Shown: piece by piece, positions 2 to 49,121 of the stretch
How the letters are laid out: every line of letters begins with the position of its first letter
How positions within the stretch are numbered: position 1 is the first letter of the stretch
Assembly (NCBI GenBank): GCA_000004985.1
Contig: GG738935.1
Strand: one strand, 5' to 3'
Length of the DNA stretch: 64,000 bases
From: Naegleria gruberi
Lineage: Eukaryota
Position numbers and translations under genes: made by a program
The notes under the pieces: generated by a model
What the model was told of the DNA's origin: nothing
What the model saw: the letters and a program-made list of their open reading frames with translations, nothing else
Databases searched by the model: none

Positions 2-3000
2 AGTCCTATTCAAGAAAGATTGGCCGAATATATTCAAGTTTATTATACCTATTCAACATCTAGTGAACAATATAAAATCAGAGAAGTATTGACAACGGAG
101 GATACTAATCCATGTATCATTCTATCAAATTTACTTTTACAAATTTCTAAAAAGAGTGTCAATGTGTTTGTTGAAGTATTTCAATGGACAAGTTTGTGGA
201 AGATTGTGATTGATATTTTCAAGAATTTGTCCAAATTTGATGAAGAAAGAATGAATATTGAACATTTTATTCAATTCTGCAATTTTACAAGTTTGTCTTT
301 TGGTAACATGTTTCTTCATGCTTCCAAGGATATTAGAAAATTGATAGAATTGAGTTCATCTAAGGTTTTTATGGAAATGATGCAATATTTGGAACAGTTT
401 GTAAATAGTGCTGAAAATGAATCAAAGAAATTTAAAACTTTGGAAAAGGTTGCAATTTTATATGTGATTGAAATTTATGTTTGGGGTCTCTTTACATCTC
501 TCCATTTAATTCCAAATTTGTTAATTGAATTCCAACATTGTGATGGATATGATTTGCTGAAGAAAGTTTTCTATGCCATTAACAATTCTGAGAAGAGCGA
601 ATCATCTCAAGATTGCTTTCTTTTACAATTCCAACAACAAAAAATGTTAACAATATTGCATGTAATGATTAATCTTGTTTTAGAATTGACAACACATATT
701 CAATTGGTTAATCAGGAAGAAGCTATTCAGGAACAACTTGGAAAGTGTAAGAGAAATCAACATGTTTTTGGGCTATTGGTCTATCTTTATAATCATACAG
801 ACATGTCCAAGATTGGAAGTGATTTTTTATGTAAAAGAGAGTTATTAGATCACTTACTCTCTAATTTGACACTTTTCCACGAGGAATATTTCAAAATTCT
901 TTACAATAGTGAACCTTTCAAGTATATTTGTGAGAATTTTACTTCTACATCAAAGGAAATGCAAATTCAAGTTTTAAAAACTTTTGATCACTACATTCAA
1001 TTATTCACTCTATTAGATTCATCTAATGAAACACAAGTTGATGAAAATTTAATATGTAGAGATTTTAATGAGTATCTCAAATTGTTACTGACCAATCATG
1101 ATATGTTTTTAGACTCAATTATGAGAGTTTGTAATCATTTGATATCTAAAATTCAGGACAAGTCCATTTATCACAAGATTCAACTACTTTTTAGAAATTC
1201 AGGATTTACAAAATTAATACTTCAATCTATTGATATCAAACAAAGAAATAATCAAGTTATGGCAAAACTAGTACAACTAATTTATTTATTCTTAGAAGGA
1301 AATTTAGATAATCACAAAGATTTTATGGGTCAATTAACTCCAAAGTCAAATCCACTCTACAAATTATTGTATGATGAAGAGTTGATTGGAGAAACATTAC
1401 CTGTCATCAAAATGATTGTTGTTAATGACAAATCACAAACATGGGACTTTATTATATCAGATTTATTGGAAATTATGTTTATTAACAATCTAGATGAATC
1501 TAGTTTCAATTCAATGTACTCTAACATTCATCAATCGCACAATTCAAGTGTTAAATTTTGTGAAAAGCACTTGAGAATGTGTGAAAAAATCTTATGCTGC
1601 ATTAGAAAAATGTTTTTGGAGAATGAAAATGTAAAGAATTCCTTTAGAAAATGTAAAGGATATGAAAAGATTATCAACTTACTTGTTCTAAATAGTACAA
1701 ATTTAGAATGTTACGATTTAGTCTTTTCCATTGTCCAATCATGTATTAATTTACTTATACTTTCAATGAATGAGAATTCAGACAATGAGATTTACTTTAA
1801 AAAGTTTATTACATTCTCTTCATTATTGTCTCCATTACACAAATGTGGATTTGTTAAGAGTTATGAACATGGTATTAATCTGACTATGAATTTGTTACAA
1901 TTCTCAGTTATGGACTATGGTTTATATGAACCAAATAATTCTGATAGATTTAGAAAATTAATTGAAGAAAAAGTTCTCTTATTTGAAAATCCTGAAATGA
2001 TTCCAGAGGTAATTCTTAAATTATATGGTAGAAATCTGAGTGAAATTGATCCAAAGTTATCAAATTTCCTTGTTGATATGCTTTTTAGACTTGTGAAATA
2101 TTCAACAAACAGACATCGTTTGTCTAGAGCTAAATCTCTTTTAATTCTAATGAAGGAATTTACAACAGTTCTATTGGAGCCTTCTCACTATCTTTCTAAT
2201 AGAATTACCAAATTATTAATGCTCCTAGGTGCTCACAATTTTTCTCCTCGTGAAATGCAATACTATTTTACATTGTTCACACCTGACAGATTGAATACTA
2301 TTATTCAATCATCAAATAATAATGGAAATTCCCTCACTAGTACCACTAATTCAAATAGTTTCATTTCAATTTTGAATAGCAGTGGTAACAGTGGTAGTAA
2401 CAGTAATAGTAATAGTACTGAAATGATTGCAAGTTCACCTCTTCCAATTCTACCTTCCACCAAAACAATTAATAATTTATTGAAGACATTACTTGAATTG
2501 GGTGAACAAACTTTTATTCCAAATTATTATATTGACTTTTCTCCTCTCAACAAGGACAAGGTATTCCGATATGATGATTTGACTCAACTCAAGAGTAAGA
2601 GATTGAGACTCTTCTCTAGCTCTTCAAGTAAGATGGCTCACGATAGAGAAGAAAGAATTTTACTGAAGAGAACACTTAATACTTTTTCATCAATTTTATT
2701 CCCAAAGATGAATTATTCTTCATGGCCGTCCGAGAAGGGACATACAACTACTTTGTGGTTCAGAATTGAAAGTAATTCCAATTCCAAGATTAGTTTATTC
2801 AGTTTCTCTTCTCATGTCAATTCAATGGTATTTAATGTTTCAATGACACCTGATATGAAATTGAATATAGAGATGGAAAGAACAAATGAAAAATTAGAAT
2901 GGACAGAAACATTTTCAAATTATGAATTCAAACTCTATCAGTGGTATTTTATTGGTATTAATCAACAATTAATTCAATTACAAGATAAGATTGAACACAA

Positions 3001-6000
3001 GTTTGGATTATTTGTAAATGGTTTTCATGTTCAGGAAGTTGTTCATCAAGAATCTATTGACAAATCTATTATGGATATGTTCAAATCATTCTTGAGTTTC
3101 TCTCAAACAAGTTTAGAATTTATTGTTATGGGATCAAATGCCTATGACATGTCAAAAACAGTTAATCAAACAATGAAGAGTGTTAATAAGAGATCAGGAT
3201 CATTGAAATCAACTCTTTCAATCAATACTTCAAATATTGCCTCCAACTCATCAACAAGCGTTGGTCTTCATATTCCTAGTCCAATCAATAATAATAACAC
3301 TACTAATAATTTATTATTGAATAGTGCTAGGAGTAGTTCCAGTAGTTTGAGTTCAAATACAGCACCAGTACATGGACATAATGCAAATGTAACAGCCCAA
3401 TCTCCTTCAGATGAAGATAATTCAGCACTAGCTAATCAACAAGAGAAATTATTCACTTGTCCAGCATTCCAACTTGGTAACATGTTCTTTATTGAAGAAT
3501 GCTTGAATGATGAAGAAATGTACATGATGTATCATTTGGGTCCTAATTATATGGGCAATTTTGATGAAGATTTATCTCAATACTTTTGTAATGAAATGAT
3601 TAATGAGGAAAGTGTTGTAAAATTCAAGAATAAGATTTACTATATGAAAGATTGCTCAAACAATGTAGGTTTGAGTCAATTAACAAACAGATTTGTTTTT
3701 GCATTTTCATCAGTGGATGCTAGTTTAATTACAAGAATAGCTCAACAATCACAATCAAATTCATTGGACAGTGTTGATATTGTTTTTAGTAATAATAAGA
3801 AAAAGAAGATGGCTTCCTCCAATACTAGTAGTAGCTCCAGCTCGACATCAAACAGCTCATCCAAGGTTGCAGCTACACCTTCTGATAGTAATGCCTCTAC
3901 ACCAATGTCTGTTGGTTCTCCAACTCCCTCTCCATCAACTGTTACTGCTTCCTCTTCCTCTAATAGCAATAACACTGCTTCTAGTGATGCTAGCTCTTCA
4001 AGTAGTAGTGGTAGTGGTAGTGGCAGTGGCAGTAGTAGCAATAGCAATGTTGTTTATAATGTTTCTGATATTAGATCATACATACCTAATAGAAATTACA
4101 ACAATGCCAATGCACTCAACTATCAAAAGACAACTAATTTTACTTCAATCAAGTGTTACCTTTCTGGTAAAACAACACTTGTATCAAAGTGTACATTTAA
4201 GGGTAATTTATATGTTATTGGAGGAATGAAAGCAATTTTAGGTCTTTATGCCAAGATGAAAGATCCATCAAGTAAGATTTACACACTCCTATTATTATCT
4301 TATTTGATGAAAAACAACTCGCTCAATACTTCTGAAATGCTAAGATTGGGAGGATATGACATGTTAAATTATCATTTCCTTTCATCTAAAGATAGTCAAT
4401 TTGAAATTACTCCATCAGTTCTATTAGCACTTTTAGTAATGTGTGGACTTGATATTCCAAATGATGTCATAGTCAATTCAGTGAATCTTAAGGTGAGAGA
4501 TATTTGTAAGCGCGGAGTTATTAATAATTTTATGGCATTTGAAAAACTCTTATTAGATTATAGAATTTGGCATACCAATGCTAAAGTTGATACTTTGAAG
4601 AAAATGTTAAAATGTTTGGCAGAGTTGGTTTCCTCTTCATTCAGATCTAAAGTTAATGAACATCACCGTGCTATTTTATTAACAACGGCAAATGGTGTTA
4701 AAAGATTGCTCTTTGCCATGTCTCAATCATATGTAGTTGGTGAAAAGATTGATTGGCCAATTAAGATTATTAATCCAACCATCAAGATTCTCAAATGCAT
4801 CATTCCAACACCAATTTCAATGACCTACGTTTATCCAATTGTTCAATATATTATTTTAACTCATCATCAAGATTATGCTCAATGGATGAATGAAAATAAT
4901 ATGAACAACAATTACATGCCACAATTAACAACAACAACAACAATAGGAACAAGTGAAGATGGTTCTAATAATCATCTAGACAGTCATTATGGAAATGTTG
5001 AAATTATTGAACCAAGAAAATCAGTATTGAATATGTTCTATAATTTGATAGAAGAGGCACCTGAAGATGTGTTGGAAGATTTCCACTCTGTTTTGCCAAC
5101 AGGACAAATTATTGCACTTTTAAATACCAAATCAAATCTTATAAGATGTATTCTATTGAAAATGTTAGGAGTTTACTTGTCGAGAAAGGAAACACTCAAA
5201 GATCAATTTATTAAGAGTAATGCTGCTCATTTATTGACATTACAATTGTTAGAAGTTGGAAATCCTTCTCTCTTAGAATTCCAAGTTATGTTTGATTTAA
5301 TGTTGGGTCTCTTCAATAATAATACGACAACTGCAGCAGCTGCTGATTATTCAAATGATTATATAGCATCTCCTGTTAAAACGAGACGAAACAGTATAAT
5401 TCTGAGTTCTGGTGCCACAAGTGGTGGTATTGATTCAATCGATGATTTATTAGAATTAGGAGAGGGTGATGATGATAAGACAGCCCTCCAGAGAACATCA
5501 CTTTTCCTTCCTACCTCAATTTCTCATGCAGCTTTCTTATTACCAAAATCTACATCAGGTTCTTGTTCTTCTAATGGTAGAGATTCTTCTGATTCTTCAC
5601 CAACAAAGAAGAGATCAAGATCAGTTTATTTCAAATCCATGAATGCTGCTACAATTGCTTCATCACCAACCAATACAAACACCGCTCTCAACTCTACTGC
5701 AACTAGTAGTAGTAGTAGTAGTACTACTTCTGGAAAATCGCTTCATATTCCTAGTAGTAGTGATAGTCCTATGGGATTTACAAACTATAATACTACACCA
5801 AAAGGTAGTAGTAGCAGCAGATATATCACTACTAATAGATTGAAGAATTCAATTTCTCTCATTAAATATGAATTCTCTCAATTTGAATTCAGAGAATTCC
5901 TCACACCAATTCTAAGACTCATACCATGTATTAAAGATATTGAGGAGAAGATTAACGTATTTGAAACTATTTGCAGACTTTTCAAGAATGGTGGTGAAAA

Positions 6001-9000
6001 ATTGAAGTTATACTTTTATGAAATCAAGGCTCATTGGTATATTCAAGTTTACTTGTCAAATTTACCAAAGGATAATCCACATACCAAAAAGTTTATCAAA
6101 CTCACATTGGACTTTATTATTGATTATGTTAATTATAGTATTTTAAATATTCCTAAACAATATTTGGGTCAATATGGTCTGAAAGGAAGTGTTGAAATAT
6201 TGACAAATATTTTACAATACCTTTTAGTGATGGAGAAGAGTTCTTATGATATTATTTTCATTCAAAATATGCAAAGATATATTTTACAAGGTGTTCTTGC
6301 CTTCTTCCAAAAGAATTATCTCTTCCATGAAAAATCCAAAACCTTGAAGAAGGATAAACAACTTCAAAAGAAGGAAAAAAAGATCAAAGGCCATTTGAGT
6401 GCTGTTTTCATTTCATTCTGTACTTGTGCAACTGACTATATTATTCAGTGGTTCGATTTACCTCCAGAACCACCAGTTACCAATGAGGAAACCACAACAG
6501 GCAAGATAAGTATGATGGGGTCATCTGCTATTGCACAAAAATATGGAAATATCAGTGGAACAAGAAGAAACATTACTAGAATGTTTGACGATTCTTCAAA
6601 TAATTCTTTGAATACTACTACTGGTTCACATACTCTGAAAACCTCAACTAGTATGATATTCGAAAAACAACACATTGAGGATGAATCTCCAACAGTTCAA
6701 TCAGAATCTAATAATACTGAAGACAACCCTCAACTTTCCCAATTCAAAAATGTTCAATTTATTGATAATTATGTGGGAACTGATGATACAACTCAAACCA
6801 AAACAGTCAAGATTCAACAAGATCAAGCTTGGGATCAAAGATCACTCTCTTCCAAGATATTCCACAATTATGAACGTACACTTTCACAAGATGCATCTTC
6901 ATCATCAGAAGAGGAAGAAGGAAATGATTCAACTCTCTTTTCACACAATATTCATGATATTTCAGGATTTATTTATTGGTTCATTGATTCTATTCGTAAA
7001 TGTCTTGTTATTCAAAAGAAGGGATCATCAAAATCAAGTAGAACTGGAAGTTTCTATGATGAAAATCAAGATTTCACACCAATTACTACACCTGAATTTA
7101 TTCTAGTAGAACAATTGAAGAGAATTTTCATGTTCTTATTGGATTCTAAACGTTCCAAACCTGATCATATATTCACACTTCTCCAACTTTTATACTTCTT
7201 CCCATTCCATAGTGAATTGATTATTCATGATCTATTACAAGAACCACCAGGTTATCAAGAGATGGTTAATTGTGGAAAGCTTTTGAAGAGTTTCTGTTCA
7301 GATACCAAGTACATTACCAGATTATTATTTAGAACTGCAAACTTGTTTGATAAGACTGATACTATTCTACCACAATTGAATAGAAAAGTTTGGAAAGTAA
7401 TAATTTCAACATGTAAAGATTATTTGAAGAAGAATATTTTCCCAAAAACATTTGATCCAAATGATCCAGATTTTGTGAGTATGGTTGAAGAAGCTTCAAC
7501 TGTTTCGGAGAATATTTCATCACTCATCTTTGAACCAAGTGTTATTGATCAAGTGAGAGAATGGGAATCTAATGAATTTTCAACCTTCAACTCTAAATTA
7601 ACTGCTGTGACAGAGGTAATTCTAAAATCAGAAGAATCAGACAAGAAGAAGGATTCAAATATTAGAAAGAATTTAAGAAATGAACAAACACAATTAGAAT
7701 TGAATAAGATTAAATATATGAAACCACACATGCTCAAATTGAAATCAATTAAGGATACAGATTTACAAGCTAGAAAACAATGGAAAATGCTTGTCAAGTT
7801 CATTCAAGAAGATGTCAGCTCCTTCAATGTTTATTTCCACACCACCAATTCATATTGTGATAAAACAATCAAGACAAGATCAACCATTACAACAACAAGA
7901 AGTCACGTCACTAAAGAAAATGATTATCACAGATTATCATTCTCTCCATATGATGATGAAACATTTGAAAATGTTGACTACAAGTTAGATTCAACATCTG
8001 GTCCAAATCGTGTCAGAATGAGAATGAAGAGACAATTGAAAAAGAGACCATTCAATATTGATGAATTCCAAAGTGAAACTCAATTAACAAATGTTCAATC
8101 ATCACAAAAGAAGAGATCAGTCAAATTTAGTGAGATTACAACTGTTCATGGTGGAAATGGTAGTAATACCAATTTGAATAATTCACAAGATGATGATGAA
8201 GTAACCAGTTCTTCAACTACAACAACAACAACATTGAATGAGAACTCTTATCACTTGTCAATTTCAACAATTATTTTAGAACCAAAGAAGTGTAAGAGAA
8301 TTACACCACTCAGAATTACGGAGGGTGATTTGATTTTAGGAGAAGATGGTGTCTACTTTATTGCTTCTTGCAGTTATCCATTGACAATTAGAACTAATTC
8401 TTCCTCTACAAATCATTCTAAACAATTGGAAATGAAAAAGACTTATAACTTTTCCTATGAAGAAATTAGAGAAATTCACAATCGTAGATATTTACTCAAG
8501 AACAATGCTTTGGAATTCTTCCTATTGAATGGTAAATCATTCTTCTTTGCATTTGATGATGGTGAAACAAGAGATAGAGTATTATCAATCCTTTCATCTC
8601 CCTCCTCTAGATTTAATTATCTAAGTTTAACTCCAAATTTGAACTTGTTAAATTTAGTTAACTATGAAGAAGAAGTTAATGGAAAACTAATCTTTAAGAA
8701 ATCAATTACTCAAAAATGGGTTGAAGGTACAATTAGTAACTTTGAATATCTTATGCATTTGAATATTCTAGCTGGTAGATCATTTAATGATTTGACTCAA
8801 TATCCAGTCTTTCCATTTATTTTAAGAGATTATGATAGTAAGGAACTTGATTTATCAGATCCAAATACATTTAGAGATTTAAAAAAGCCAATGGGTGCAT
8901 TGAATGAAAAACGTTTAGAAAAGATTATTCAACAATATGAAAATTTGAAAGATGTTGAAGATCAAATTCCATATCACTATGGAAGTCACTACTCTACTCC

Positions 9001-10588
9001 AATTGCTGTATCTTATTATCTTGTGAGAATGGAACCATTTACTAGAATTTTCTTTGAATTCAATGATGGAAAATTGGATTTACCAGATAGAACATTCCAC
9101 TCCTTAAAGAAATCTTGGGAATTATCATCAGGAGAAACTCAATCCAAATCAGATTTCAAAGAACTTACTCCAGAATTCTTCTACTTGCCAGAATTTTTAC
9201 AAAACAGAAATCGTATTGATTTTGGTATTTTACAAAATGATAAGAGTTTTGATGATGTAGAATTACCACCTTGGGCTAATGGTGATCCTGTTTTATTTAT
9301 TAGAAAGCATAGAAAAGCTCTTGAATCTGACTATGTTTCTCGTAATTTACATCACTGGATTGATTTAATATTTGGTTACAAACAACGTGGAGAATCTGCT
9401 ATTAACAGTTACAATGTATTCCATTACATGACTTATGAAGGTTCTCTAACTGATGAAGTTGATTTAATTGATGATCCAATTACAAGAGAAGCCAGATGGA
9501 CTCAAATCTGTACCTATGGTCAAACTCCAAAACAATTATTCAAAAAAGCTCACCCTGAACGTTATGCTACAACTAATCTTATGGGAGGTGAAGAAGATAC
9601 TATCAATGTCATTCCAATTACAAATTACATTTTCAAAGTTGCAAATGAATTATCTCCTGGAAATATTAGAATATTCAAAGAACCTGTTGCTGATATTTAT
9701 ATTAGAAATGATCAAACAACTCACAATAATAGTGTTATTGCTGTTGGAAAGTATAAGATTTTCATTCCTCCAAGTGGACAAGAACGTAGAAATTCACCTG
9801 TTTATCTATCTTATAGACATTGGGATAAAACATTGAGAATTGAAAAGTGGGATAATGGAAAGCAATTACACATCTTCCACTTTATGAATCAACCTGAAAT
9901 TTACAAATGTGCCAAATTCTCACGTGAAGGTGATATGCTAGTTGTTGGTACTAATATTGGAGCATTGCACGTTTTTAGAGTTAACAATAGAATTAAGATT
10001 CACAATAAGAATACTCCAGATACAACAAATGTTAATACTGATAAGGATAACAAATTCTTGGACCATGTTGCAACTCTGAGTGGTCATTCTGATAGTGTTT
10101 TATGTGTTGCCATCTCAACTGAATTTTCAATGATTATTAGTGGTTCTCGTGATTCTTGTATGATGATTTGGGATTTGAATAGATTTAGATTTGTTAAATC
10201 AATTAAGCATGATGGTAAAGTCACGTGCATTGCCACTTCACCAACAACAGGTGATATTGCCTCATTCTGTCAAAACAATGTAAATGGACAAAATCACTTG
10301 TATTTATGGACTGTTAATGGTGATTTGATTTCATATTGCAACATTAGAGCAAAGATTACATGTATGAAATTCACCTGGATGGATGAAGGTATCAATCAAA
10401 ATGTTCTTGTTTGTGGTTTGGCCAATGGTACTATTGCTATATTGGATGCTTTAGGTTTGAAGGTTATTTCTAAACTCAAAATTACTGACTATACTTCACC
10501 AATTAGATCAATTGAAATTAACTCTCCAATGACAGAGATTGTTGCTGGTGACGACAGAGGTTTTGTTGTGAGTTGGTACAAGAAATAA
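2..10588 (+). CDS. BEACH-domain protein with C-terminal WD40 repeats (LvsA/neurobeachin/LYST-like). 5' partial: the reading frame is open from the window edge. No introns in 10.5 kb.
   Basis: 3522-aa continuous ORF. Canonical BEACH domain (WVEGTISNFEYLMHLNILAGRSFNDLTQYPVFPFIL...HYGSHYSTPIAVSYYLVRMEPFT...WIDLIFGYKQRGE..NVFHYMTYEG) at about nt 8700-9560. A PH-like region precedes it and WD40 repeats follow (about nt 9860-10560). Stop TAA at 10586-10588. The track start at 20 is TTG; the frame is open upstream to the window edge, so the N-terminus lies outside the window. Confidence 0.9.
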   Translation, partial: SPIQERLAEYIQVYYTYSTSSEQYKIREVLTTEDTNPCIILSNLLLQISKKSVNVFVEVFQWTSLWKIVIDIFKNLSKFDEERMNIEHFIQFCNFTSLSFGNMFLHASKDIRKLIELSSSKVFMEMMQYLEQFVNSAENESKKFKTLEKVAILYVIEIYVWGLFTSLHLIPNLLIEFQHCDGYDLLKKVFYAINNSEKSESSQDCFLLQFQQQKMLTILHVMINLVLELTTHIQLVNQEEAIQEQLGKCKRNQHVFGLLVYLYNHTDMSKIGSDFLCKRELLDHLLSNLTLFHEEYFKILYNSEPFKYICENFTSTSKEMQIQVLKTFDHYIQLFTLLDSSNETQVDENLICRDFNEYLKLLLTNHDMFLDSIMRVCNHLISKIQDKSIYHKIQLLFRNSGFTKLILQSIDIKQRNNQVMAKLVQLIYLFLEGNLDNHKDFMGQLTPKSNPLYKLLYDEELIGETLPVIKMIVVNDKSQTWDFIISDLLEIMFINNLDESSFNSMYSNIHQSHNSSVKFCEKHLRMCEKILCCIRKMFLENENVKNSFRKCKGYEKIINLLVLNSTNLECYDLVFSIVQSCINLLILSMNENSDNEIYFKKFITFSSLLSPLHKCGFVKSYEHGINLTMNLLQFSVMDYGLYEPNNSDRFRKLIEEKVLLFENPEMIPEVILKLYGRNLSEIDPKLSNFLVDMLFRLVKYSTNRHRLSRAKSLLILMKEFTTVLLEPSHYLSNRITKLLMLLGAHNFSPREMQYYFTLFTPDRLNTIIQSSNNNGNSLTSTTNSNSFISILNSSGNSGSNSNSNSTEMIASSPLPILPSTKTINNLLKTLLELGEQTFIPNYYIDFSPLNKDKVFRYDDLTQLKSKRLRLFSSSSSKMAHDREERILLKRTLNTFSSILFPKMNYSSWPSEKGHTTTLWFRIESNSNSKISLFSFSSHVNSMVFNVSMTPDMKLNIEMERTNEKLEWTETFSNYEFKLYQWYFIGINQQLIQLQDKIEHKFGLFVNGFHVQEVVHQESIDKSIMDMFKSFLSFSQTSLEFIVMGSNAYDMSKTVNQTMKSVNKRSGSLKSTLSINTSNIASNSSTSVGLHIPSPINNNNTTNNLLLNSARSSSSSLSSNTAPVHGHNANVTAQSPSDEDNSALANQQEKLFTCPAFQLGNMFFIEECLNDEEMYMMYHLGPNYMGNFDEDLSQYFCNEMINEESVVKFKNKIYYMKDCSNNVGLSQLTNRFVFAFSSVDASLITRIAQQSQSNSLDSVDIVFSNNKKKKMASSNTSSSSSSTSNSSSKVAATPSDSNASTPMSVGSPTPSPSTVTASSSSNSNNTASSDASSSSSSGSGSGSGSSSNSNVVYNVSDIRSYIPNRNYNNANALNYQKTTNFTSIKCYLSGKTTLVSKCTFKGNLYVIGGMKAILGLYAKMKDPSSKIYTLLLLSYLMKNNSLNTSEMLRLGGYDMLNYHFLSSKDSQFEITPSVLLALLVMCGLDIPNDVIVNSVNLKVRDICKRGVINNFMAFEKLLLDYRIWHTNAKVDTLKKMLKCLAELVSSSFRSKVNEHHRAILLTTANGVKRLLFAMSQSYVVGEKIDWPIKIINPTIKILKCIIPTPISMTYVYPIVQYIILTHHQDYAQWMNENNMNNNYMPQLTTTTTIGTSEDGSNNHLDSHYGNVEIIEPRKSVLNMFYNLIEEAPEDVLEDFHSVLPTGQIIALLNTKSNLIRCILLKMLGVYLSRKETLKDQFIKSNAAHLLTLQLLEVGNPSLLEFQVMFDLMLGLFNNNTTTAAAADYSNDYIASPVKTRRNSIILSSGATSGGIDSIDDLLELGEGDDDKTALQRTSLFLPTSISHAAFLLPKSTSGSCSSNGRDSSDSSPTKKRSRSVYFKSMNAATIASSPTNTNTALNSTATSSSSSSTTSGKSLHIPSSSDSPMGFTNYNTTPKGSSSSRYITTNRLKNSISLIKYEFSQFEFREFLTPILRLIPCIKDIEEKINVFETICRLFKNGGEKLKLYFYEIKAHWYIQVYLSNLPKDNPHTKKFIKLTLDFIIDYVNYSILNIPKQYLGQYGLKGSVEILTNILQYLLVMEKSSYDIIFIQNMQRYILQGVLAFFQKNYLFHEKSKTLKKDKQLQKKEKKIKGHLSAVFISFCTCATDYIIQWFDLPPEPPVTNEETTTGKISMMGSSAIAQKYGNISGTRRNITRMFDDSSNNSLNTTTGSHTLKTSTSMIFEKQHIEDESPTVQSESNNTEDNPQLSQFKNVQFIDNYVGTDDTTQTKTVKIQQDQAWDQRSLSSKIFHNYERTLSQDASSSSEEEEGNDSTLFSHNIHDISGFIYWFIDSIRKCLVIQKKGSSKSSRTGSFYDENQDFTPITTPEFILVEQLKRIFMFLLDSKRSKPDHIFTLLQLLYFFPFHSELIIHDLLQEPPGYQEMVNCGKLLKSFCSDTKYITRLLFRTANLFDKTDTILPQLNRKVWKVIISTCKDYLKKNIFPKTFDPNDPDFVSMVEEASTVSENISSLIFEPSVIDQVREWESNEFSTFNSKLTAVTEVILKSEESDKKKDSNIRKNLRNEQTQLELNKIKYMKPHMLKLKSIKDTDLQARKQWKMLVKFIQEDVSSFNVYFHTTNSYCDKTIKTRSTITTTRSHVTKENDYHRLSFSPYDDETFENVDYKLDSTSGPNRVRMRMKRQLKKRPFNIDEFQSETQLTNVQSSQKKRSVKFSEITTVHGGNGSNTNLNNSQDDDEVTSSSTTTTTTLNENSYHLSISTIILEPKKCKRITPLRITEGDLILGEDGVYFIASCSYPLTIRTNSSSTNHSKQLEMKKTYNFSYEEIREIHNRRYLLKNNALEFFLLNGKSFFFAFDDGETRDRVLSILSSPSSRFNYLSLTPNLNLLNLVNYEEEVNGKLIFKKSITQKWVEGTISNFEYLMHLNILAGRSFNDLTQYPVFPFILRDYDSKELDLSDPNTFRDLKKPMGALNEKRLEKIIQQYENLKDVEDQIPYHYGSHYSTPIAVSYYLVRMEPFTRIFFEFNDGKLDLPDRTFHSLKKSWELSSGETQSKSDFKELTPEFFYLPEFLQNRNRIDFGILQNDKSFDDVELPPWANGDPVLFIRKHRKALESDYVSRNLHHWIDLIFGYKQRGESAINSYNVFHYMTYEGSLTDEVDLIDDPITREARWTQICTYGQTPKQLFKKAHPERYATTNLMGGEEDTINVIPITNYIFKVANELSPGNIRIFKEPVADIYIRNDQTTHNNSVIAVGKYKIFIPPSGQERRNSPVYLSYRHWDKTLRIEKWDNGKQLHIFHFMNQPEIYKCAKFSREGDMLVVGTNIGALHVFRVNNRIKIHNKNTPDTTNVNTDKDNKFLDHVATLSGHSDSVLCVAISTEFSMIISGSRDSCMMIWDLNRFRFVKSIKHDGKVTCIATSPTTGDIASFCQNNVNGQNHLYLWTVNGDLISYCNIRAKITCMKFTWMDEGINQNVLVCGLANGTIAILDALGLKVISKLKITDYTSPIRSIEINSPMTEIVAGDDRGFVVSWYKK
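4001..4038 (+). repeat. (AGT/GGT/GGC)n microsatellite encoding an SSSGSGSGSGSSS tract inside the BEACH CDS; part of a 200-nt Ser/Thr/Asn-rich low-complexity segment (3820-4040).
   Basis: agtagtagtggtagtggtagtggcagtggcagtagtagc read directly; the frame is preserved. Confidence 0.8.
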
Positions 10589-12380: not shown

Positions 12381-13433
12381 TTACAATTGCTTCTTTATTG
12401 AGAGAATATCAGTGACTGGAATGTTCTTCACGCAACCAGTAAAAGTGAGAGAAGGTGTTTTTTTGTGTGAAGAAATTTCTTCAATGGACAAGTATTTCAA
12501 ATTTTCTAAAGTTGTCTTATCTTCAAACATTTTCGAAACTCTTCCCATAATGATTTTGCTTGTTGGTGCACCAACATTTAGTTGTTGAGATTGAGGTATT
12601 TTAATTTCCAATTGACAAACATTTCCAACTGAGAGCATTAATAATGATCCACTTCCAATAATACATGATGAATAGTAATCATAGTGATTGGATGGTGGTG
12701 ATTTGTAATCCTTCATAGCCCATGAAAATGTCAAAGATTGAATTGTTACTGAATTAGTTTGTTGTTGTGAATTAGTTTGTGAGAGAGGATTTGTTAATTT
12801 TTCAATGTAACAATCATTATCAATAGTGTTGACTTGATCATCATTTTCAACATAATATCCACATCTTTGTTTGAGTTCTTTAGCGTCACGAACAACAAAA
12901 ACTCTTCCAGTAATTGTATTAAGAGGAATTTCACCCTCTAAATCTGTCATATATCTTCTGAAATCATCCTTCTTTTTCATTAAATCCTCTCCTACTACAC
13001 CCATCATTGATTTAACCTCTTCATGGGATCTCAACATTTGTACTTTACATTTCTTAATATTTCCCATAAAAGTACAAGAATAAACACTTGTAATTTTACC
13101 TTCATGAATAGTTGGAGGTTCAGTTTGACTCACAAAAATGTTAAACTGAATAAAGTCTCCAATCCAAAACATTTGTTCCCTAACAATTTCATTGTTAGTC
13201 GACTTGTATGTTCTTTTAAAGCCTTTATAATATTTATTTCCGTCCTTTTCTGTTAGAAAGGTATGAAGAGTATCTTCGTATGTGACGGAATTTTGTGATA
13301 GATTAAATACTTGTTGATTTGTTGTGGTTGTTGTGGATGGTGTTGGTACCATAATCGAAGAATCAAAATCAAATGATTGTGGCACTGTACCACCTTGAAT
13401 AGGATTTGATGAAGATAAATCGAATGAAGTCAT
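12381..13433 (-). CDS. Hypothetical 350-aa protein, possible BAH-like domain.
   Basis: Continuous ORF. The segment FWIGDFIQFN...HEGKITSVYSCTFMGNIKKCKVQMLRSHEEV...ITGRVFVV loosely resembles the BAH pattern. Only 112 bp separate its stop from the upstream gene. Confidence 0.3.
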   Translation of the reverse strand: MTSFDLSSSNPIQGGTVPQSFDFDSSIMVPTPSTTTTTNQQVFNLSQNSVTYEDTLHTFLTEKDGNKYYKGFKRTYKSTNNEIVREQMFWIGDFIQFNIFVSQTEPPTIHEGKITSVYSCTFMGNIKKCKVQMLRSHEEVKSMMGVVGEDLMKKKDDFRRYMTDLEGEIPLNTITGRVFVVRDAKELKQRCGYYVENDDQVNTIDNDCYIEKLTNPLSQTNSQQQTNSVTIQSLTFSWAMKDYKSPPSNHYDYYSSCIIGSGSLLMLSVGNVCQLEIKIPQSQQLNVGAPTSKIIMGRVSKMFEDKTTLENLKYLSIEEISSHKKTPSLTFTGCVKNIPVTDILSIKKQL

Positions 13434-45181: not shown

Positions 45182-46101
45182 TTAATGCCTTAATTTTTCA
45201 TAGAGTTCATATCTCTTATTTGGAAGGGTTGGAATTTGAGATCTGACAGTAGTAACTTGGTCCAAGTCAATCTCAGTTACAGACACAGATTCAGATTCAT
45301 CATGTTCCTTGATAATATCTCCTAGTGGATTGGATATTAAACTGTGTCCATACGCAACATAACCAGCTTGCTCATCTCTGGCAGGTGAACACAATACGGT
45401 GAATATTTGATTGTCGACAGCTCTTCCCCTGGCCAATAAATTCCAATGGAGTGGTCCTGTGACCTTATTGAAAGCAGCTGGGAATACCATCATATTAATA
45501 TTTCTTTGAGTTTGATAAATAGATGCTAATTCAGGGAATCTAATATCAAAACAAATTCCAATACCAATTTTAGCATTGAATTCTGGCATTTCAAATGAAA
45601 GTAAATCTGATCCTGGTGACAATACTTCTGATTCTTTAAATTTCAAAGTTGGTGTATCCAATTCAAATAAGTGAATCTTATCAAATCTTCCAACAGTTTT
45701 TCCATCTCTATCAAACACAAAACAACTATTAAACATTTTATCCACAGTTTGAGATTTAGTTGGTATAGATCCAGCAATTAAATAAATATCATTTTCCTTG
45801 GCTGCTTTTGACATTTCATTCAATGTTGGAGAATCACTTGGATCCTCAGCATATTGTTTAAAGAATTGTGTTCCGTATGGACTTTCACATTCCGATCATG
45901 ATCAACAATTCAACATCCACAATAAATTATTCCTTTCCACAATCAAATCATCACCACCTACCTATTAAAACATTCGGGAAGTACAACCAAATCAGCACCC
46001 ATCTCCTTCACCTTTTTAATCTTATCGATTGCATTTTTAATATTTCTGCTCTTATCGGCCGTGACCATAAATTGACATAATCCAACACGAAGTTTTCTCA
46101 T
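45182..46101 (-). CDS. NIT2: Omega-amidase NIT2 (nitrilase/CN-hydrolase superfamily); two exons 46101..45962 and 45881..45182.
   Basis: Exon 1 MRKLRVGLCQFMVTADKSRNIKNAIDKIKKVKEMGADLVVLPECFNS (catalytic Glu in LPECFNS); donor GTAGGT (complement of 45956-45961), 74-nt intron, acceptor GAAAG. Exon 2 PYGTQFFKQYAEDP...IGIGICFDIRFPELA (catalytic Cys in GICFD) ..FPAAFN. Together these give the E-K-C triad of the CN-hydrolase family and close similarity to NIT2 (LPECFNSPYGTKYFPEYAE). Confidence 0.85.
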
Positions 46102-46251: not shown

Positions 46252-47395
46252 ATGTCTTCCATTCACAGAAAAAAGCTGGAGGTGAGCACTGATAGCATAT
46301 TTATTGAGGTCGGAAGGAAGACACACACTATAGGAACTGATCATCACGATGATGAAAGTGTTGCTAATAAGAGGAAAAAGGTTAAAAAAGAAATTCCTCA
46401 ACATTTACCACCTCCGAAACAGCCCTTATTTTGGAACAAGTATAAGATTGCACTGCCCTCTGTGGCAGAATATATAACAATGTTCGGATGGTTGGTAGCA
46501 GCTGCTATTTGTTCTTCGTATATTGTTTATTCGGTCGATTCTTTTGTTTCATCGAGGAATAATCCAACCACTGCCACTAGTTATGTGGAAAGTGTGCCAA
46601 TGTATTTTCCAGCAGTTACTGTTTGTAATTGGAATGCAATGGTATCTTGTGATTATTGTAATTTAACATTGAAATATGCAACGAGAGTGAATGGTAAGAG
46701 TGGAGTGGTGGAGGATTTTGATTTTCATCATGATACAGTTCAAATCTTTCAACATGGACAATTGTTTAACTGTTTGGTGTTTAATAATGGATCAAATTCA
46801 AGGATTCAAGGTTAGTAGTATTTTTTGAAATGAGAGACGTATTATTTATCTGATATAGCTACCGAAATTGGATATGCAGGAACAATATCCTTCTATTTTA
46901 GGGTCCCTCCTGAATCAAGAGATTCTCGTTTTGGATTACAAATTTCATTTCATGAGAATGGAACTGTTCCAAGTGTATTTTCTGAAACGAATTGTGCAAT
47001 CTCTGGTTATGATAACTATTATTCTTTAACTAAGGTTTTCACGAAACGATTAAAACCAAACAGTGAAGGTGGATTACACTCAATAAGGTGGACTTCTCAA
47101 CTTTCAATGGTAGAGCTCACTCAGACTGAGAATGATATTGTTGTTATTTCAGTGGCCTATTCAACCTTGAATCTGCATGTCATTACTGAGATTTATAATA
47201 ATTCCTATGAAGGCTTATTCGGACAGATATCAGGAATACTTGGAATATTGTAGGTTTCAATTTCTGATTTCAAATTGGCATTAATATTTGATAAGTATGG
47301 GATTGGATATTTTGAAATTCATTAGAGGAGTTTTACTCACCCCTTATTCTCTCAAACAACGATCAATAAGAAGACTTTGGGAAAACTTCAACTAG
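46252..47395 (+). CDS. Degenerin/ENaC/ASIC-superfamily-like channel subunit with a compact ectodomain; 3-exon model 46252..46810, 46859..47249, 47296..47395.
   Basis: Cytoplasmic N-terminus, then TM1 IALPSVAEYITMFGWLVAAAICSSYIVYSV, then the post-TM1 hallmark FPAVTVCNWN (compare FPAVTLCNLN of ASIC and FPAVTICTLN of ENaC) at nt 46605-46634. Ectodomain is about 200 aa. Pre-TM2 TLNLHVITEIYNNSYEGLFGQISGILGIFMGLDIL resembles ASIC ALNYETIEQ...GLFIGASILTVLE (beta12/TM2 with G-x-S filter region). Introns: GTTAGT 46811..46858 and GTAGGT 47250..47295. The exon 3 acceptor choice (47295 versus 47324) is uncertain. Confidence 0.5.
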
Positions 47396-47501: not shown

Positions 47502-49121
47502 TTAATTCATACGAATGATTTTGAAAACAATAGCAATACCAACAATTTGAATTATCAAGATAATTACGAATGGTAAATCTATAAATATTTCCCTAGATTC
47601 ATTCAAAACAAAAGAGAATAATAATGGAGCAATAGCCCTGCCAATAATTGATATAGAACCCAAACATCCATTAAGTGTGCCTTGTTCCTCTGGTTTGTTA
47701 AATATTGATATAATCAAGCTAGTTCTTAAAGCATCCTCTTTAGCACCAATAAGCAATAGCAGCATTCCAAAATAAATTAAATCTCCACTCGGACACAGAA
47801 TGAAATAAAGGGATAATAGGGCAGTGAAAATACAAGTCAGTAAGAGAGCATGCTTTTCACTATTCCTAGAAATTTTCAAAATCAGCTTTGACAATAAGGA
47901 ATTTGACAAAATTGCACAAAGCCCCAAAATTGTGAGTAAATAACCATTGTCACTAGGTGTGAAATGGTACTTATACCTAGTAAATTGAGTAATTGTGGAA
48001 AAGAATGCAAATGATGAAATTGTACTCAATAGTTTTGTAATAATTAGAAAAATTAAAACCTTTTCACCAGAAAATAATATCTTAACAATATATTTAAATG
48101 GAAAAACAAGTTGATCGAAAATAGTAGTGTTACTCTTTCCGTTAGATTGAGTAACATGTTCATGTAAATATTTAAAAAGTACAAAGGTCGAAAATAGTGA
48201 CACTAGTAAAATTAATCCGAATACAGTAGCAATATCCATAAATTTTAAAACTAGTGCACTGATTATTGATCCAATAGTTGTTGAAAGTCCCATAATAGCA
48301 ACTACATATGAAAATAAATTAGATAAATTTCCAAATATTCCAGAATCCTTATTACTTTCACTATTACTATAATGATAATTTGAAATTAATGAATTGATTA
48401 ATGGAATAATATCCAAGGCAAATCCTTGAATCACACATGCGATTGCATACAGAACTATACTATTCTTTTTTATCCAAACAATCGGAGAAATCAATTCTTC
48501 ATCTTTCCAAGAAATCAATCCAGAAAGAGTCAAATAAATAATAAATATCACATTGTAAAGTATTGAAAATATTATCAAAAACCTCTTCTTTCCATACTTG
48601 TCCGATAAGTTTCCCACAATTGGACTAATACAAAAGAATATCAAACATGGAAATGAATTAAAAAAACCAAACATAAACGTTGCAAAATGTGAATCTCCAT
48701 ATGCTGCTATATAAACTCTTTCAAAAAGCTCAAAAGCAATAGGATTCAACAATCCAAAGGTAAGAAAATACAAAAACAAGTAAAAGTACAATATGCAATA
48801 ATCTTTAACACTTGTTGTATTACCTTCCAATGATGATGATGGTGTTCGATCCTTTGGCTGTTGTATTTTCACTAACATACAATCTCCTTCTCCTCCCGAT
48901 AATTGTTCTTCATCTTCATCATCATCAAGAAGAAGATTATTAATATTTTGTTCCTCATCCTTGTCATCTTCATGATGCAGTGCTTCCTCCGAGCGTGTTG
49001 CTTTTACCTGTTGATGTTGATGATTATGGATGGGTTTCTCTTCATCCAAATCAGGCATTTTTTTTGTACAAACAACTTGCAAATTACCCAAATTTTCAGA
49101 TAATGAAATATTTGCATGCAT
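47502..49121 (-). CDS. Major facilitator superfamily transporter (HIAT1/MFSD14- or TetA-like), about 12 TM.
   Basis: MFS loop 2-3 signature PIVGNLSDKYGKKRFLIIF (G.LsD..GR.) plus about 12 hydrophobic segments. The N-terminus is acidic and His-rich. The first ATG at 49121 is MHANISL; a second ATG (MPDLDEEK) in A-rich context may be the real start. Confidence 0.6.
   Translation of the reverse strand: MHANISLSENLGNLQVVCTKKMPDLDEEKPIHNHQHQQVKATRSEEALHHEDDKDEEQNINNLLLDDDEDEEQLSGGEGDCMLVKIQQPKDRTPSSSLEGNTTSVKDYCILYFYLFLYFLTFGLLNPIAFELFERVYIAAYGDSHFATFMFGFFNSFPCLIFFCISPIVGNLSDKYGKKRFLIIFSILYNVIFIIYLTLSGLISWKDEELISPIVWIKKNSIVLYAIACVIQGFALDIIPLINSLISNYHYSNSESNKDSGIFGNLSNLFSYVVAIMGLSTTIGSIISALVLKFMDIATVFGLILLVSLFSTFVLFKYLHEHVTQSNGKSNTTIFDQLVFPFKYIVKILFSGEKVLIFLIITKLLSTISSFAFFSTITQFTRYKYHFTPSDNGYLLTILGLCAILSNSLLSKLILKISRNSEKHALLLTCIFTALLSLYFILCPSGDLIYFGMLLLLIGAKEDALRTSLIISIFNKPEEQGTLNGCLGSISIIGRAIAPLLFSFVLNESREIFIDLPFVIILIIQIVGIAIVFKIIRMN

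What the first reader, a model, noticed from the sequence alone, without database searches (positions are those of the whole stretch)
46252..47395. Degenerin/ENaC/ASIC-like channel gene with a half-size ectodomain
The 3-exon gene encodes a two-TM protein with intracellular termini. Its post-TM1 motif FPAVTVCNWN is almost identical to the FPAVT(L/I)C(N/T)LN motif of ASIC/ENaC. Its pre-TM2 palm strand and TM2 (TLNLHVITEIY...GLFGQISGILGIFMGLD) follow the ASIC beta12/GAS-filter/TM2 layout. The ectodomain is only about 200 aa, against more than 350 aa in animal members. The family is essentially metazoan, with only scattered protist members reported. A compact member in this AT-rich protist would be a useful minimal ENaC-fold model. 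Exon 3 depends on a GTAGGT donor that overlaps the in-frame TAG.
Basis: partly seen in the sequence, partly recalled or inferred. Interest (0 to 1): 0.7.

Follow-up and report, generated by a model that had tools for sequence, protein, structure and literature searches.

The report
Compact ENaC/ASIC-like channel gene, Naegleria
This is a real, apparently unannotated three-exon gene of the amoeba Naegleria gruberi that encodes a stripped-down relative of animal ENaC/ASIC sodium channels, one more copy of a gene family already known in this organism but never studied functionally.

Summary
Exons 46252-46810, 46859-47249 and 47296-47395 (+) splice in frame to a 349-aa protein with two transmembrane helices. 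It matches Pfam ASC (PF00858) at E=3.2e-11, 43.4 bits against a cut-off of 23.6.

Exon 3 and the 47295 acceptor are supported by four lines:
- perfect conservation in a 96%-identical relative, whose introns diverge;
- an intronless paralog with the same TM2 spacing;
- a C-terminal ...GLDxLKxxRG...FN* tail shared across the family;
- a neighbouring gene with the same GTAGGT...AAG intron type.

Two canonical motifs are missing. There is no pre-TM1 His-Gly, and the TM2 G-x-S filter reads G-L-D followed by a nearly invariant Lys, so Na+ selectivity cannot be assumed.

ENaC/degenerin genes in N. gruberi were reported in 2011 (recalled, not verified here). This is therefore a new member of a known kind, of moderate interest.

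The parts
46252..46810 (+). Exon 1. It encodes the poorly conserved cytoplasmic N-terminus (aa 1-70), TM1, the FPAVTVCNWN motif and the first beta strands, up to aa 186 plus 1 nt.
   Evidence: The ORF starts at the first ATG. The same ATG and frame are kept in the 96%-identical contig L003, where the indels are 6 and 3 nt.
46811..46858 (+). Intron 1, phase 1, 48 nt, GTTAGT...TAG.
   Evidence: Splicing restores the conserved '...A(T/N)xxGY(A/G)G(T/S)' continuity seen in intronless relatives. Divergence from L003 is 16% with non-triplet indels, against about 3% in the exons.
46859..47249 (+). Exon 2. It encodes the rest of the beta-domain (RFGLQISFHE, ETN, DNYY strands), the long pre-TM2 strand and the first half of TM2.
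   Evidence: P0004 from L003 is 96% identical over this exon.
47250..47295 (+). Intron 2, phase 2, 46 nt, GTAGGT...AAG. The donor overlaps the in-frame TAG at 47251-47253.
   Evidence: There are 4 substitutions in 46 nt against L003, while exon 3 is identical. The same F|MGLD junction occurs in N. gruberi paralog P0003, and read-through or stop at the same site in P0001 and P0006. An identical GTAGGT...AAG phase-2 intron is confirmed in the neighbouring CN_hydrolase gene.
47296..47395 (+). Exon 3. It encodes the second half of TM2 (MGLDILKFIRGVLL), a basic cytoplasmic tail and the stop codon (…RRLWENFN*).
   Evidence: It is 100% identical in L003. The motif GxDxLKxxRG…(K/R)(S/T)…FN* is conserved across 41 aligned family members. 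The paralog in L001 (gene 2) has no intron here and reads GMIGLMMGIDILKMLRG...WDTFN* with the same spacing.
46462..46560 (+). TM1 helix (aa 71-103 by transfer from the model; hydrophobic core about aa 74-96).
   Evidence: Hydropathy. Helix 71-103 in the AlphaFold model of P0010 was mapped by pairwise alignment.
46606..46635 (+). Post-TM1 motif F119-PAVTVCNWN-128. It contains the invariant Cys125.
   Evidence: It aligns to FPAVTICN of ENaC gamma, ASIC1, ASIC5, FaNaC and PDPNaC1. C125 is found in 41/41 members, P120 in 37, N126 in 39 and N128 in 38.
46759..46788 (+). Beta-ball strand QLFNCLVFNN. It carries the invariant Cys174 and Asn178, equivalent to 'GNCYTFN' in ASIC and ENaC.
   Evidence: It aligns to ENaC gamma 'GNCYTFNN' and FaNaC 'FNCFTFN'. 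C174 and N178 are found in 41/41 members.
47137..47193 (+). Long pre-TM2 palm strand IVVISVAYSTLNLHVITEI (beta12 equivalent).
   Evidence: It aligns to the strand preceding TM2 in ENaC, ASIC5, FaNaC and BRTNaC1. It corresponds to strand 281-299 in the model.
47206..47359 (+). TM2 / pore helix (aa 303-338; interrupted in the genome by intron 2). Key positions are Q309 (0'), G319 (10'), D321 (12'), K324 (15') and R327 (18').
   Evidence: Helix 304-339 in the model. Column counts are G319 41/41, D321 34/41, K324 40/41 and R327 24/41.

Best explanation
The locus is an intact, selectively maintained three-exon gene of Naegleria gruberi. It encodes a 349-aa subunit of a DEG/ENaC/ASIC-superfamily channel reduced to the superfamily's conserved core: a cytoplasmic N-terminus, TM1, an almost purely beta ectodomain of about 208 aa (palm plus beta-ball, without the helical finger, thumb and knuckle), TM2, and a short basic cytoplasmic tail.

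By homology (inferred), three subunits, possibly mixed with some of the 8 or more paralogs, assemble around a central pore lined by TM2, and movements of the lower palm strands open the gate.

The pore differs from animal members. The G/S-x-S ring is G-L-D. The residue three positions later is a nearly invariant Lys, and the Glu that sets Na+ selectivity in ASIC (18') is usually Arg. The pre-TM1 His-Gly re-entrant loop motif is absent. The channel is therefore most likely not an ENaC-type Na+-selective pore, and its selectivity (cation non-selective, divalent or anion) is open.

The stimulus is unknown. With no acidic pocket or thumb, ASIC-style proton sensing is not available. Ionic, pH or osmotic/mechanical cues acting on the palm are the most plausible for a freshwater amoeba (inference).
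For: Gene model:
- The splice is in frame.
- The ortholog in L003 keeps the same model, with 9 synonymous against 5 non-synonymous codon changes and only in-frame exon indels. Its introns diverge 9-16% while exon 3 is identical.
- The C-terminal TM2 and tail are conserved family-wide and are contiguous in an intronless paralog.
- A control intron with the same GTAGGT...AAG signals lies in the neighbouring gene. Splicing it gives one continuous CN_hydrolase match, profile positions 1-255 of 256.

Family membership:
- Pfam ASC scores 43.4 bits against a cut-off of 23.6.
- 62 of 63 relatives match ASC.
- The family profile hits FaNaC, ASIC and ENaC chains at E 5e-12 to 4e-7.

Fold:
- The AlphaFold model of P0010 (47% identical, only 1-2-aa gaps) has pLDDT 86.3, above 95 in the core. 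Its ectodomain has 11 strands and one 4-residue helix.
- Foldseek gives E about 1e-12 to ASIC1a and to PAC.

Topology:
- Basic residues flank both helices on the N- and C-terminal sides.
- Four N-x-S/T sequons and the conserved cysteines lie in the loop.

Organism:
- The window ORF at 12384-13433 (-) is exactly N. gruberi XP_002668962.1.

Pore residues:
-, using the numbering and functional roles given in PMC5449180.
Against: - There is no transcript, proteomic or functional evidence.
- The structure is that of a homolog, not of this protein, and is a monomer. Trimer formation and channel activity are inferred.
- The HG and G/S-x-S motifs, which matter for conduction in animal channels, are absent. 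A non-conducting or very different function cannot be excluded.
- The AAG acceptor and the 46-nt intron are supported only by comparison.
Confidence: 0.85

Rival explanations
1. By descent it is an ASC-family protein, but it works like PAC/TMEM206. In this reading it is a compact trimeric anion-permeable channel, possibly acid- or volume-related, whose selectivity is set by the conserved TM2 lysine (K324) and arginine (R327) rather than by acidic residues.
For: - It is the same size as PAC, 349 aa against 350 aa.
- K324 is present in 40/41 family members, and R327 replaces the Glu at 18' that determines Na+ selectivity.
- In PAC a TM2 lysine governs anion selectivity, and K319E makes the channel cation-selective (PMC7904269).
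- The family profile detects PAC TM1-beta1 at E 5.6e-7. hhalign gives 87.6% probability.
Against: - D321 sits at the constriction position, and D/E309 lies at the outer mouth in most members. Both are acidic and favour cations.
- D321 and K324 are spaced i and i+3, so they could simply pair with each other.
- Positional equivalence of K324 with PAC K319 was not established.
Confidence: 0.3
2. The gene ends at the TAG at 47251, as in the public N. gruberi model of the paralog P0001. It would then be a decaying pseudogene, or would yield a protein without a complete TM2 that cannot form a pore.
For: - The TAG is in frame directly after ...GILGIL.
- The annotated paralog model P0001 stops at the same place.
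- No RNA evidence is available.
Against: - Exon 3 is 100% conserved against L003, while the intron carries 4 changes in 46 nt.
- The exon 3 peptide carries the most conserved motif of the family, with G319 in 41/41, K324 in 40/41 and a terminal FN.
- N. gruberi P0003, the N. fowleri proteins and an intronless metagenome paralog all contain the joined sequence.
- The same donor and acceptor type is functional in the neighbouring gene.
- 9 synonymous against 5 non-synonymous changes argue for purifying selection.
Confidence: 0.04
3. It is a membrane protein with the ENaC fold that does not conduct ions. It could be an extracellular-ligand sensor, an adhesion molecule, or an auxiliary or regulatory subunit of other paralogs.
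For: - It lacks the HG and G/S-x-S motifs.
- Charged D, K and R residues lie within TM2.
- The window protein has also lost the 0' acidic residue (Q309) and one Cys pair that most relatives keep.
Against: - The glycine-rich TM2 pattern (G308, G312, G315, G319) and the pre-TM2 strand are conserved as in conducting family members.
- All characterised proteins with this fold (ENaC, ASIC, FaNaC, PAC and others) are channels.
Confidence: 0.1

Closest known systems
DEG/ENaC/ASIC superfamily (Pfam ASC, PF00858), e.g. human ENaC gamma (6WTH), chicken/human ASIC1 (6AVE, 7CFS), ASIC5, FaNaC
   Same: - Two-TM topology with a cysteine-containing ectodomain.
- The FPAVTxCN motif after TM1, and the 'CxxFN' beta-ball strand with the conserved Cys partner.
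- A long palm strand leading into a Gly-rich TM2, and an acidic residue at 0' in most relatives.
- A Pfam hit above the gathering score.
   Different: - The ectodomain is about 208 aa, against about 350-450 aa.
- There are no helical finger, thumb or knuckle domains, so no acidic pocket and no protease-sensitive finger.
- There is no pre-TM1 His-Gly motif.
- TM2 reads G-L-D..K..R instead of G/S-x-S..T..E.
- TM2 is predicted as one continuous helix.
- The host is a heterolobosean amoeba, not an animal.
PAC / ASOR / TMEM206 proton-activated chloride channel (7JNA, 7SQG, 8FBL; Pfam PF15122)
   Same: - About 350 aa, with two TMs and a compact beta-domain that has almost no peripheral decorations.
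- A conserved lysine in TM2.
- Weak but detectable sequence similarity in TM1-beta1 ('HPVMSVSYKE' against 'nPttsvsyee').
   Different: - There is no Pfam TMEM206 match, and identity is only 9-11%.
- The FPAVTxCN and CxxFN motifs and the cysteines are of ASC type.
- PAC has a helix-turn-helix insertion (PMC7904269), whereas the model has only a 4-residue helical turn.
- Anion selectivity is shown for PAC and untested here.
Small metazoan DEG/ENaC channels with solved structures: PDPNaC1 (9JF7, 421 aa) and BRTNaC1 (8YMR, 431 aa)
   Same: - They are reduced-size members of the same family.
- BRTNaC1 also departs from G-x-S (G-I-C) at the filter position, as shown in the HMMER alignment.
   Different: - They are still 70-80 aa longer and come from animals.
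- They do not share the D..K..R TM2 pattern or the ...FN* tail of the heterolobosean clade.
Annotated heterolobosean paralogs and orthologs: N. gruberi XP_002678414.1, XP_002680309.1, XP_002680183.1, XP_002682191.1, P0001 and P0003; N. fowleri FDP41_006660/006661; N. lovaniensis C9374_010561; Willaertia magna ABK040_012151
   Same: They share the compact architecture, motifs and C-terminal tail at 37-66% identity, and several share the phase-2 intron in TM2. All are unnamed 'predicted' or 'hypothetical' proteins that carry Pfam ASC.
   Different: - This locus has no protein in the public collection. Neither the 349-aa model nor the 317-aa model is present, and no hit close to 100% identity was found.
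- It is a singleton between a CN_hydrolase gene and an MFS gene, not part of a tandem pair.
- It has Q instead of D/E at 0' and lacks one Cys pair.

Membership tests
DEG/ENaC/ASIC (Pfam ASC PF00858) | Significant match to the family profile above the curated threshold | tested here: met
   E=3.2e-11, 43.4 bits against a cut-off of 23.6, in 3 collinear stretches. 62 of 63 relatives also match.
DEG/ENaC/ASIC (Pfam ASC PF00858) | Two transmembrane helices flanking a large extracellular loop, with both termini cytoplasmic | tested here: met
   Hydropathy peaks lie at about aa 74-96 and 305-331. Helices 71-103 and 304-339 appear in the model of the 47% homolog. Basic flanks lie on the terminal sides, and four N-glycosylation sequons and the conserved Cys lie in the loop. 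Topology is inferred, not measured.
DEG/ENaC/ASIC (Pfam ASC PF00858) | Post-TM1 FPxVTxCN motif, with its Cys paired to the beta-ball 'CxxFN' Cys | tested here: met
   FPAVTVCNWN (aa 119-128) and FNCLVFNN (aa 172-179) align to the ENaC, ASIC and FaNaC motifs. C125 and C174 are invariant in 41/41 members. The disulfide itself is inferred.
DEG/ENaC/ASIC (Pfam ASC PF00858) | Palm plus beta-ball ectodomain fold | tested here: met
DEG/ENaC/ASIC (Pfam ASC PF00858) | G/S-x-S ('GAS belt') motif in TM2 | tested here: not met
   The aligned position reads G319-L-D321. Asp is present in 34/41 family members and Ser in none of the top residues. Only the Gly (10') is kept, in 41/41.
DEG/ENaC/ASIC (Pfam ASC PF00858) | Pre-TM1 His-Gly motif (re-entrant loop lining the lower pore; PMC7308080) | tested here: not met
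   No 'HG' dipeptide occurs upstream of TM1 in the window protein or in any of the aligned family members whose pre-TM1 region could be located (34 of 41). The N-terminus is unconserved and of low confidence in the model.
DEG/ENaC/ASIC (Pfam ASC PF00858) | Acidic residues at 18' and 21' of TM2 that confer Na+ selectivity (PMC5449180) | tested here: not met
   18' is R327 (Arg in 24/41) and 21' is L330.
DEG/ENaC/ASIC (Pfam ASC PF00858) | Helical finger, thumb and knuckle domains (typical of animal members) | tested here: not met
DEG/ENaC/ASIC (Pfam ASC PF00858) | Trimeric assembly and amiloride-sensitive cation conduction | not testable with these tools
   Only monomer prediction was available, and there is no functional assay.
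PAC / TMEM206 (Pfam PF15122) | Match to the TMEM206 profile | tested here: not met
   At E<=10 the window protein hits only ASC. PF15122 is not among the families hit by the 63 relatives at E<=0.01.
PAC / TMEM206 (Pfam PF15122) | Compact subunit of about 350 aa: two TMs plus a 12-stranded beta-domain with minimal decoration | tested here: met
PAC / TMEM206 (Pfam PF15122) | Pore-lining TM2 lysine that sets anion selectivity | tested here: inconclusive
   K324 is nearly invariant, in 40/41 members. Its structural equivalence to PAC K319 and its effect on selectivity were not established.

The most novel reading that the evidence does not exclude
The heterolobosean clade, including this gene, may be the 'core-only' form of the trimeric ENaC-fold channels and a sequence-level bridge between DEG/ENaC and PAC/TMEM206. 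Those two families are currently described as unrelated in sequence. On this reading the clade has a charge-inverted pore (D at 12', K at 15', R at 18') that gives it a selectivity unlike any characterised DEG/ENaC channel, for example anion-permeable or divalent-selective. That would imply a single ancient origin for both families, before the divergence of Discoba and animals.
Probability: 0.2. Interest if true: 0.75.

Novelty: new member of a known kind. Interest (0 to 1): 0.42.

Why it matters
The locus adds a correctly spliced, complete gene model (including TM2) to a Naegleria gene family whose public models are often fused or truncated at exactly this intron.

More broadly, the family is the smallest DEG/ENaC-type protein set seen here: about 280 ordered residues, with no finger, thumb or knuckle. 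That makes it a natural minimal scaffold for three questions. Which parts of the fold suffice for trimerisation and gating? What does the GAS belt / E18' region do when replaced by D..K..R? Do DEG/ENaC and PAC share ancestry?

It also bears on the unresolved origin of the family outside animals. A 2023 survey listed only heterokont and filasterean-related homologs and did not mention Naegleria (PMC10507113).

None of this is unprecedented. The presence of the family in N. gruberi is public knowledge, and PAC already offers a solved compact version of the fold.

Tried and rejected
- Alternative exon 3 acceptor at 47324. Rejected: it shifts the frame, gives no stop, and loses the conserved GLDxLK motif.
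- TAG-terminated 317-aa model. Rejected on conservation grounds.
I did not submit it to structure prediction, which states the same restriction. I therefore searched with exon pieces plus P0001/P0002 and modelled the N. fowleri homolog P0010 instead.
- Looking up the N. gruberi locus annotation through the look-up of encoding contigs failed for P0001 and for three window ORFs. 'Unannotated' therefore rests on the absence of any hit close to 100% identity in the protein collection.
- The afdb50 fold library was unavailable, so the taxonomic spread of structural relatives could not be read.
- Naming divergent family members: the 10 sampled are unnamed metagenome or Logan contigs of 1-3 kb. Spread beyond Heterolobosea therefore remains unknown.
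- Literature: Studer et al. 2011 is not held. Searches for Naegleria with ENaC or degenerin found no paper that characterises these proteins. One 2013 survey of mechanosensitive channels discussed N. gruberi only for Piezo.
- A full-length PAC profile for profile-profile comparison could not be built. The last homolog search returned only exon-sized PAC fragments, so hhalign was limited to TM1-beta1.
- A second ASC paralog in the window: none was found by tblastn with all family proteins.
Full report
**1. Observation**

The region was read directly.
- The first ATG is at 46252.
- The reading frame runs to 46810, where GTTAGT begins a 48-nt intron ending TAG at 46858.
- Exon 2 (46859-47249) ends two bases into a codon, at a GTAGGT donor whose TAG is in frame.
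- A 46-nt intron ends AAG at 47295.
- Exon 3 (47296-47395) closes the frame with ...RRLWENFN*.

The spliced CDS is 1050 nt and encodes 349 aa. Using the alternative acceptor at 47324 breaks the frame. Hydropathy shows two hydrophobic segments, about residues 74-96 and 305-331, separated by about 208 residues.

**2. Family assignment**

hmmscan against Pfam gives a single family. ASC (PF00858) scores E=3.2e-11 and 43.4 bits against a curated cut-off of 23.6, in three collinear stretches.

phmmer against PDB sequences gives only weak hits (E about 0.03), but every hit with E below 1 is a DEG/ENaC-family chain: ENaC gamma, ASIC1/2/5, BRTNaC1 or PDPNaC1.
- FPAVTVCNWN aligns to FPAVTICNINP.
- LFNCLVFNN aligns to GNCYTFNN.
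- The pre-TM2 strand plus TM2 aligns to the corresponding ENaC segment.

**3. Organism and annotation status**

A window ORF at 12384-13433 (-) is exactly Naegleria gruberi XP_002668962.1, so the window is N. gruberi. Neither the 349-aa model nor the TAG-terminated 317-aa model is in the 15-billion-protein collection. Homology searches return no hit close to 100% identity. The best are N. gruberi paralog P0001 at 66% and a metagenome fragment, P0004, at 96%. The locus therefore appears to have no public protein model. This is inferred, because the N. gruberi gene table itself could not be retrieved.

The flanking genes are a CN_hydrolase (NIT2-like) gene on the minus strand and an MFS transporter on the minus strand. 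The MFS neighbour is conserved in contig L003. No second ASC copy lies in the window.

**4. Is exon 3 real?**

Five independent comparisons say yes.
1. Contig L003, from a closely related Naegleria in a metagenome, keeps the same three-exon model in frame (354 aa).
   - Exon divergence is about 3%, with indels of 6, 3 and 6 nt.
   - The introns diverge 9-16%, with non-triplet indels in intron 1.
   - Exon 3 is 100% identical, although intron 2 just upstream carries 4 changes in 46 nt.
   - Codon changes are 9 synonymous against 5 non-synonymous.
2. N. gruberi paralog P0003 contains ...GQIAGIIGIF|MGLDVLKMLRG...WDNFN, the same junction.
3. In metagenome contig L001, a second tandem copy has no intron here and reads GMIGLMMGIDILKMLRGALEVPYSIHHKTIRNIWDTFN* with identical spacing.
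4. Across 41 aligned family members the exon 3 peptide holds the most conserved positions of the protein: G319 in 41/41, K324 in 40/41, D321 in 34/41 and a terminal F-N.
5. The neighbouring CN_hydrolase gene has an 80-nt phase-2 intron with the same GTAGGT donor, also overlapping an in-frame TAG, and the same AAG acceptor. Splicing it turns two partial Pfam matches (134 and 26.8 bits) into one continuous match covering profile positions 1-255 of 256, at 179.8 bits.

The public model P0001 stops at the equivalent TAG and fuses two tandem genes.

**5. The family**

An exhaustive profile search of 1.84 billion representatives found 110 proteins at E<=1e-3 and 76 at E<=1e-10. Most are 280-400 aa. 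Hits of 679 and 739 aa, a size typical of animal members, appear only near E=1e-3.

Named members are all heterolobosean. They comprise several N. gruberi proteins, a tandem pair in N. fowleri, N. lovaniensis and Willaertia magna, and all are called 'predicted' or 'hypothetical' protein. The more divergent members sit on unnamed metagenome contigs of 1-3 kb. 62 of 63 members match Pfam ASC. The compact size is therefore a property of a whole clade, not an artefact of this locus.

**6. Fold**

I modelled N. fowleri P0010 instead, with a 63-sequence family alignment. P0010 is 350 aa and 47% identical over residues 70-349, and its ectodomain alignment has only three gaps of 1-2 aa.

The model has mean pLDDT 86.3 and pTM 0.72, with blocks above 95 from residue 80 to 320. 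It shows:
- TM1 at 71-103;
- eleven strands and one 4-residue helix in the ectodomain;
- a continuous helix at 304-339.

Foldseek gives E about 4e-13 to ASIC1a and about 2e-12 to PAC/ASOR. TM-scores normalised to the target are 0.44 for ASIC and 0.61-0.68 for PAC.

The ectodomain is thus the palm/beta-ball core alone. Profile alignments show what is missing:
- FaNaC 149-216 (finger) shrinks to about 26 positions.
- FaNaC 316-527 (a stretch that holds the thumb and knuckle) shrinks to about 42 positions.
- ASIC5 293-408 shrinks to about 24 positions.

**7. What differs from animal channels**

- No His-Gly motif occurs before TM1 in any family member where that region could be located. In ASIC this motif forms the re-entrant loop of the lower pore (PMC7308080).
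- In TM2, using the ASIC numbering of PMC5449180:
  - 0' is D/E in 35/41 members but Q in this protein;
  - 10' Gly is invariant;
  - 12' is Asp instead of Ser;
  - 15' is Lys (40/41) instead of Thr;
  - 18' is Arg (24/41) instead of the Glu that controls Na+ selectivity;
  - 21' is Leu instead of Asp.
- In PAC, a TM2 lysine sets anion selectivity, and K319E converts the channel to cation selectivity (PMC7904269).

The ion selectivity of the Naegleria proteins is therefore open, and 'sodium channel' is not justified. D321 and K324 could equally form an intrahelical pair.

**8. Mechanism**

Shown or well supported:
- an intact gene under purifying selection;
- ASC-family membership by profile;
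- a two-TM, core-only ENaC fold in a close homolog.

Inferred by homology:
- trimeric assembly, perhaps heteromeric given the 8 or more paralogs and the tandem pairs;
- a central pore lined by TM2;
- gating by movement of the lower palm strands.

Not known: the stimulus and the selectivity. Without a thumb, finger or acidic pocket the ASIC proton-sensing apparatus is absent. I consider ionic, pH or osmotic/mechanical sensing through the palm most plausible for a freshwater amoeboflagellate, but this is conjecture.

**9. Comparison with what is known, and novelty**

From memory, Studer et al. (Physiol Genomics 2011; 43:844) reported ENaC/degenerin homologs in N. gruberi. The reference exists but the paper is not held. 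The paralogs also carry Pfam ASC in public databases. A 2023 survey of non-metazoan Deg/ENaC lists heterokonts and Tunicaraptor and does not mention Naegleria. No held paper characterises these proteins.

This gene is thus a new, apparently unannotated member of a known but unstudied group. The compact architecture and the D..K..R pore are features I could not find described.

**10. Side observation: similarity to PAC**

The family profile detects PAC/TMEM206 chains at E=5.6e-7. The match covers TM1 and the first strand, 'KHPVMSVSYKEVDRYDAPG' against 'knnPttsvsyeeeeplefPav'. hhalign of the N-terminal sub-alignment against PAC exon fragments gives 87.6% probability and E=3.5e-6.

PAC is described as lacking discernible sequence homology to ASIC/ENaC (PMC7904269). 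This hint of a bridge deserves a proper full-length profile-profile test, which I could not run because full-length PAC homologs were not retrieved.

**11. Verdict**

- The organism is N. gruberi.
- The filter reads G-L-D, not G-A-S.
- The HG motif is absent.
- The presence of the family in this organism is already known.

Interest is moderate, at 0.42.

Noticed in passing
P0001 (N. gruberi 'predicted protein', 492 aa); not in the window: The public model is a fusion of two tandem paralogs. The first copy lacks TM1 and the second ends ...GIIGIL at the same TAG/GT donor, so TM2 is cut off. XP_002672040.1 (1563 aa) also carries a family domain at its extreme C-terminus and looks like a fusion. 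Gene models of this family in N. gruberi need re-annotation.
   Followed up: partly
window 45182-46101 (-), intron 45882-45961: This is a NIT2-like carbon-nitrogen hydrolase gene. It has an 80-nt phase-2 intron with GTAGGT...AAG signals, and its donor also overlaps an in-frame TAG. The spliced protein gives one continuous Pfam CN_hydrolase match (positions 1-255 of 256, 179.8 bits).
   Followed up: yes
window 47502-49121 (-): This is a single-exon 539-aa MFS_1 transporter ORF (E=1.6e-22), convergent with the channel gene. The pairing is conserved in metagenome contig L003. The exact 539-aa sequence is not in the protein collection, so the public model, if there is one, differs.
   Followed up: partly
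family profile A5/A6 against PDB chains 8H8D, 8FBL, 7JNA (PAC/TMEM206): The family shows sequence-level similarity to the proton-activated chloride channel in TM1 and the first beta strand. hmmsearch gives E=5.6e-7 and hhalign gives 87.6% probability. PAC is described in the literature as having no discernible sequence homology to ASIC/ENaC.
   Followed up: partly
L001 3674-4893 and 5079-6147 (JGI metagenome 3300002220): Two tandem family genes lie on a contig from an unidentified organism, between a SET-domain gene and a pseudouridine synthase gene. Intron positions differ between the paralogs. Gene 1 has a 38-nt phase-0 intron 4 nt downstream of the window's intron 2 site. Gene 2 has none there, but has a 40-nt intron after '...DYRW'.
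   Followed up: partly
L005 6001-6610 (Willaertia magna GCA_041937235.1, ABK040_012151): The annotated 178-aa model covers only the C-terminal half of the protein. No obvious upstream exon with TM1 or FPAVT was seen among ORFs within 1.2 kb. It is either a mis-modelled gene or a gene fragment.
   Followed up: no
window 46666-46716 and 46903-46911 (aa 139-155, about 202-205): This copy lacks the second cysteine pair that most members carry (consensus L-x-x-C ... C; here LKYATRV...EDFDF). It also lacks a Pro-Val dipeptide present in L003 and most relatives (PPVPESRD against PPESRD).
   Followed up: no
window 20-10588 (+): A very long uninterrupted ORF of 3522 aa occupies the first 10.6 kb of the window. 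It was not examined.
   Followed up: no
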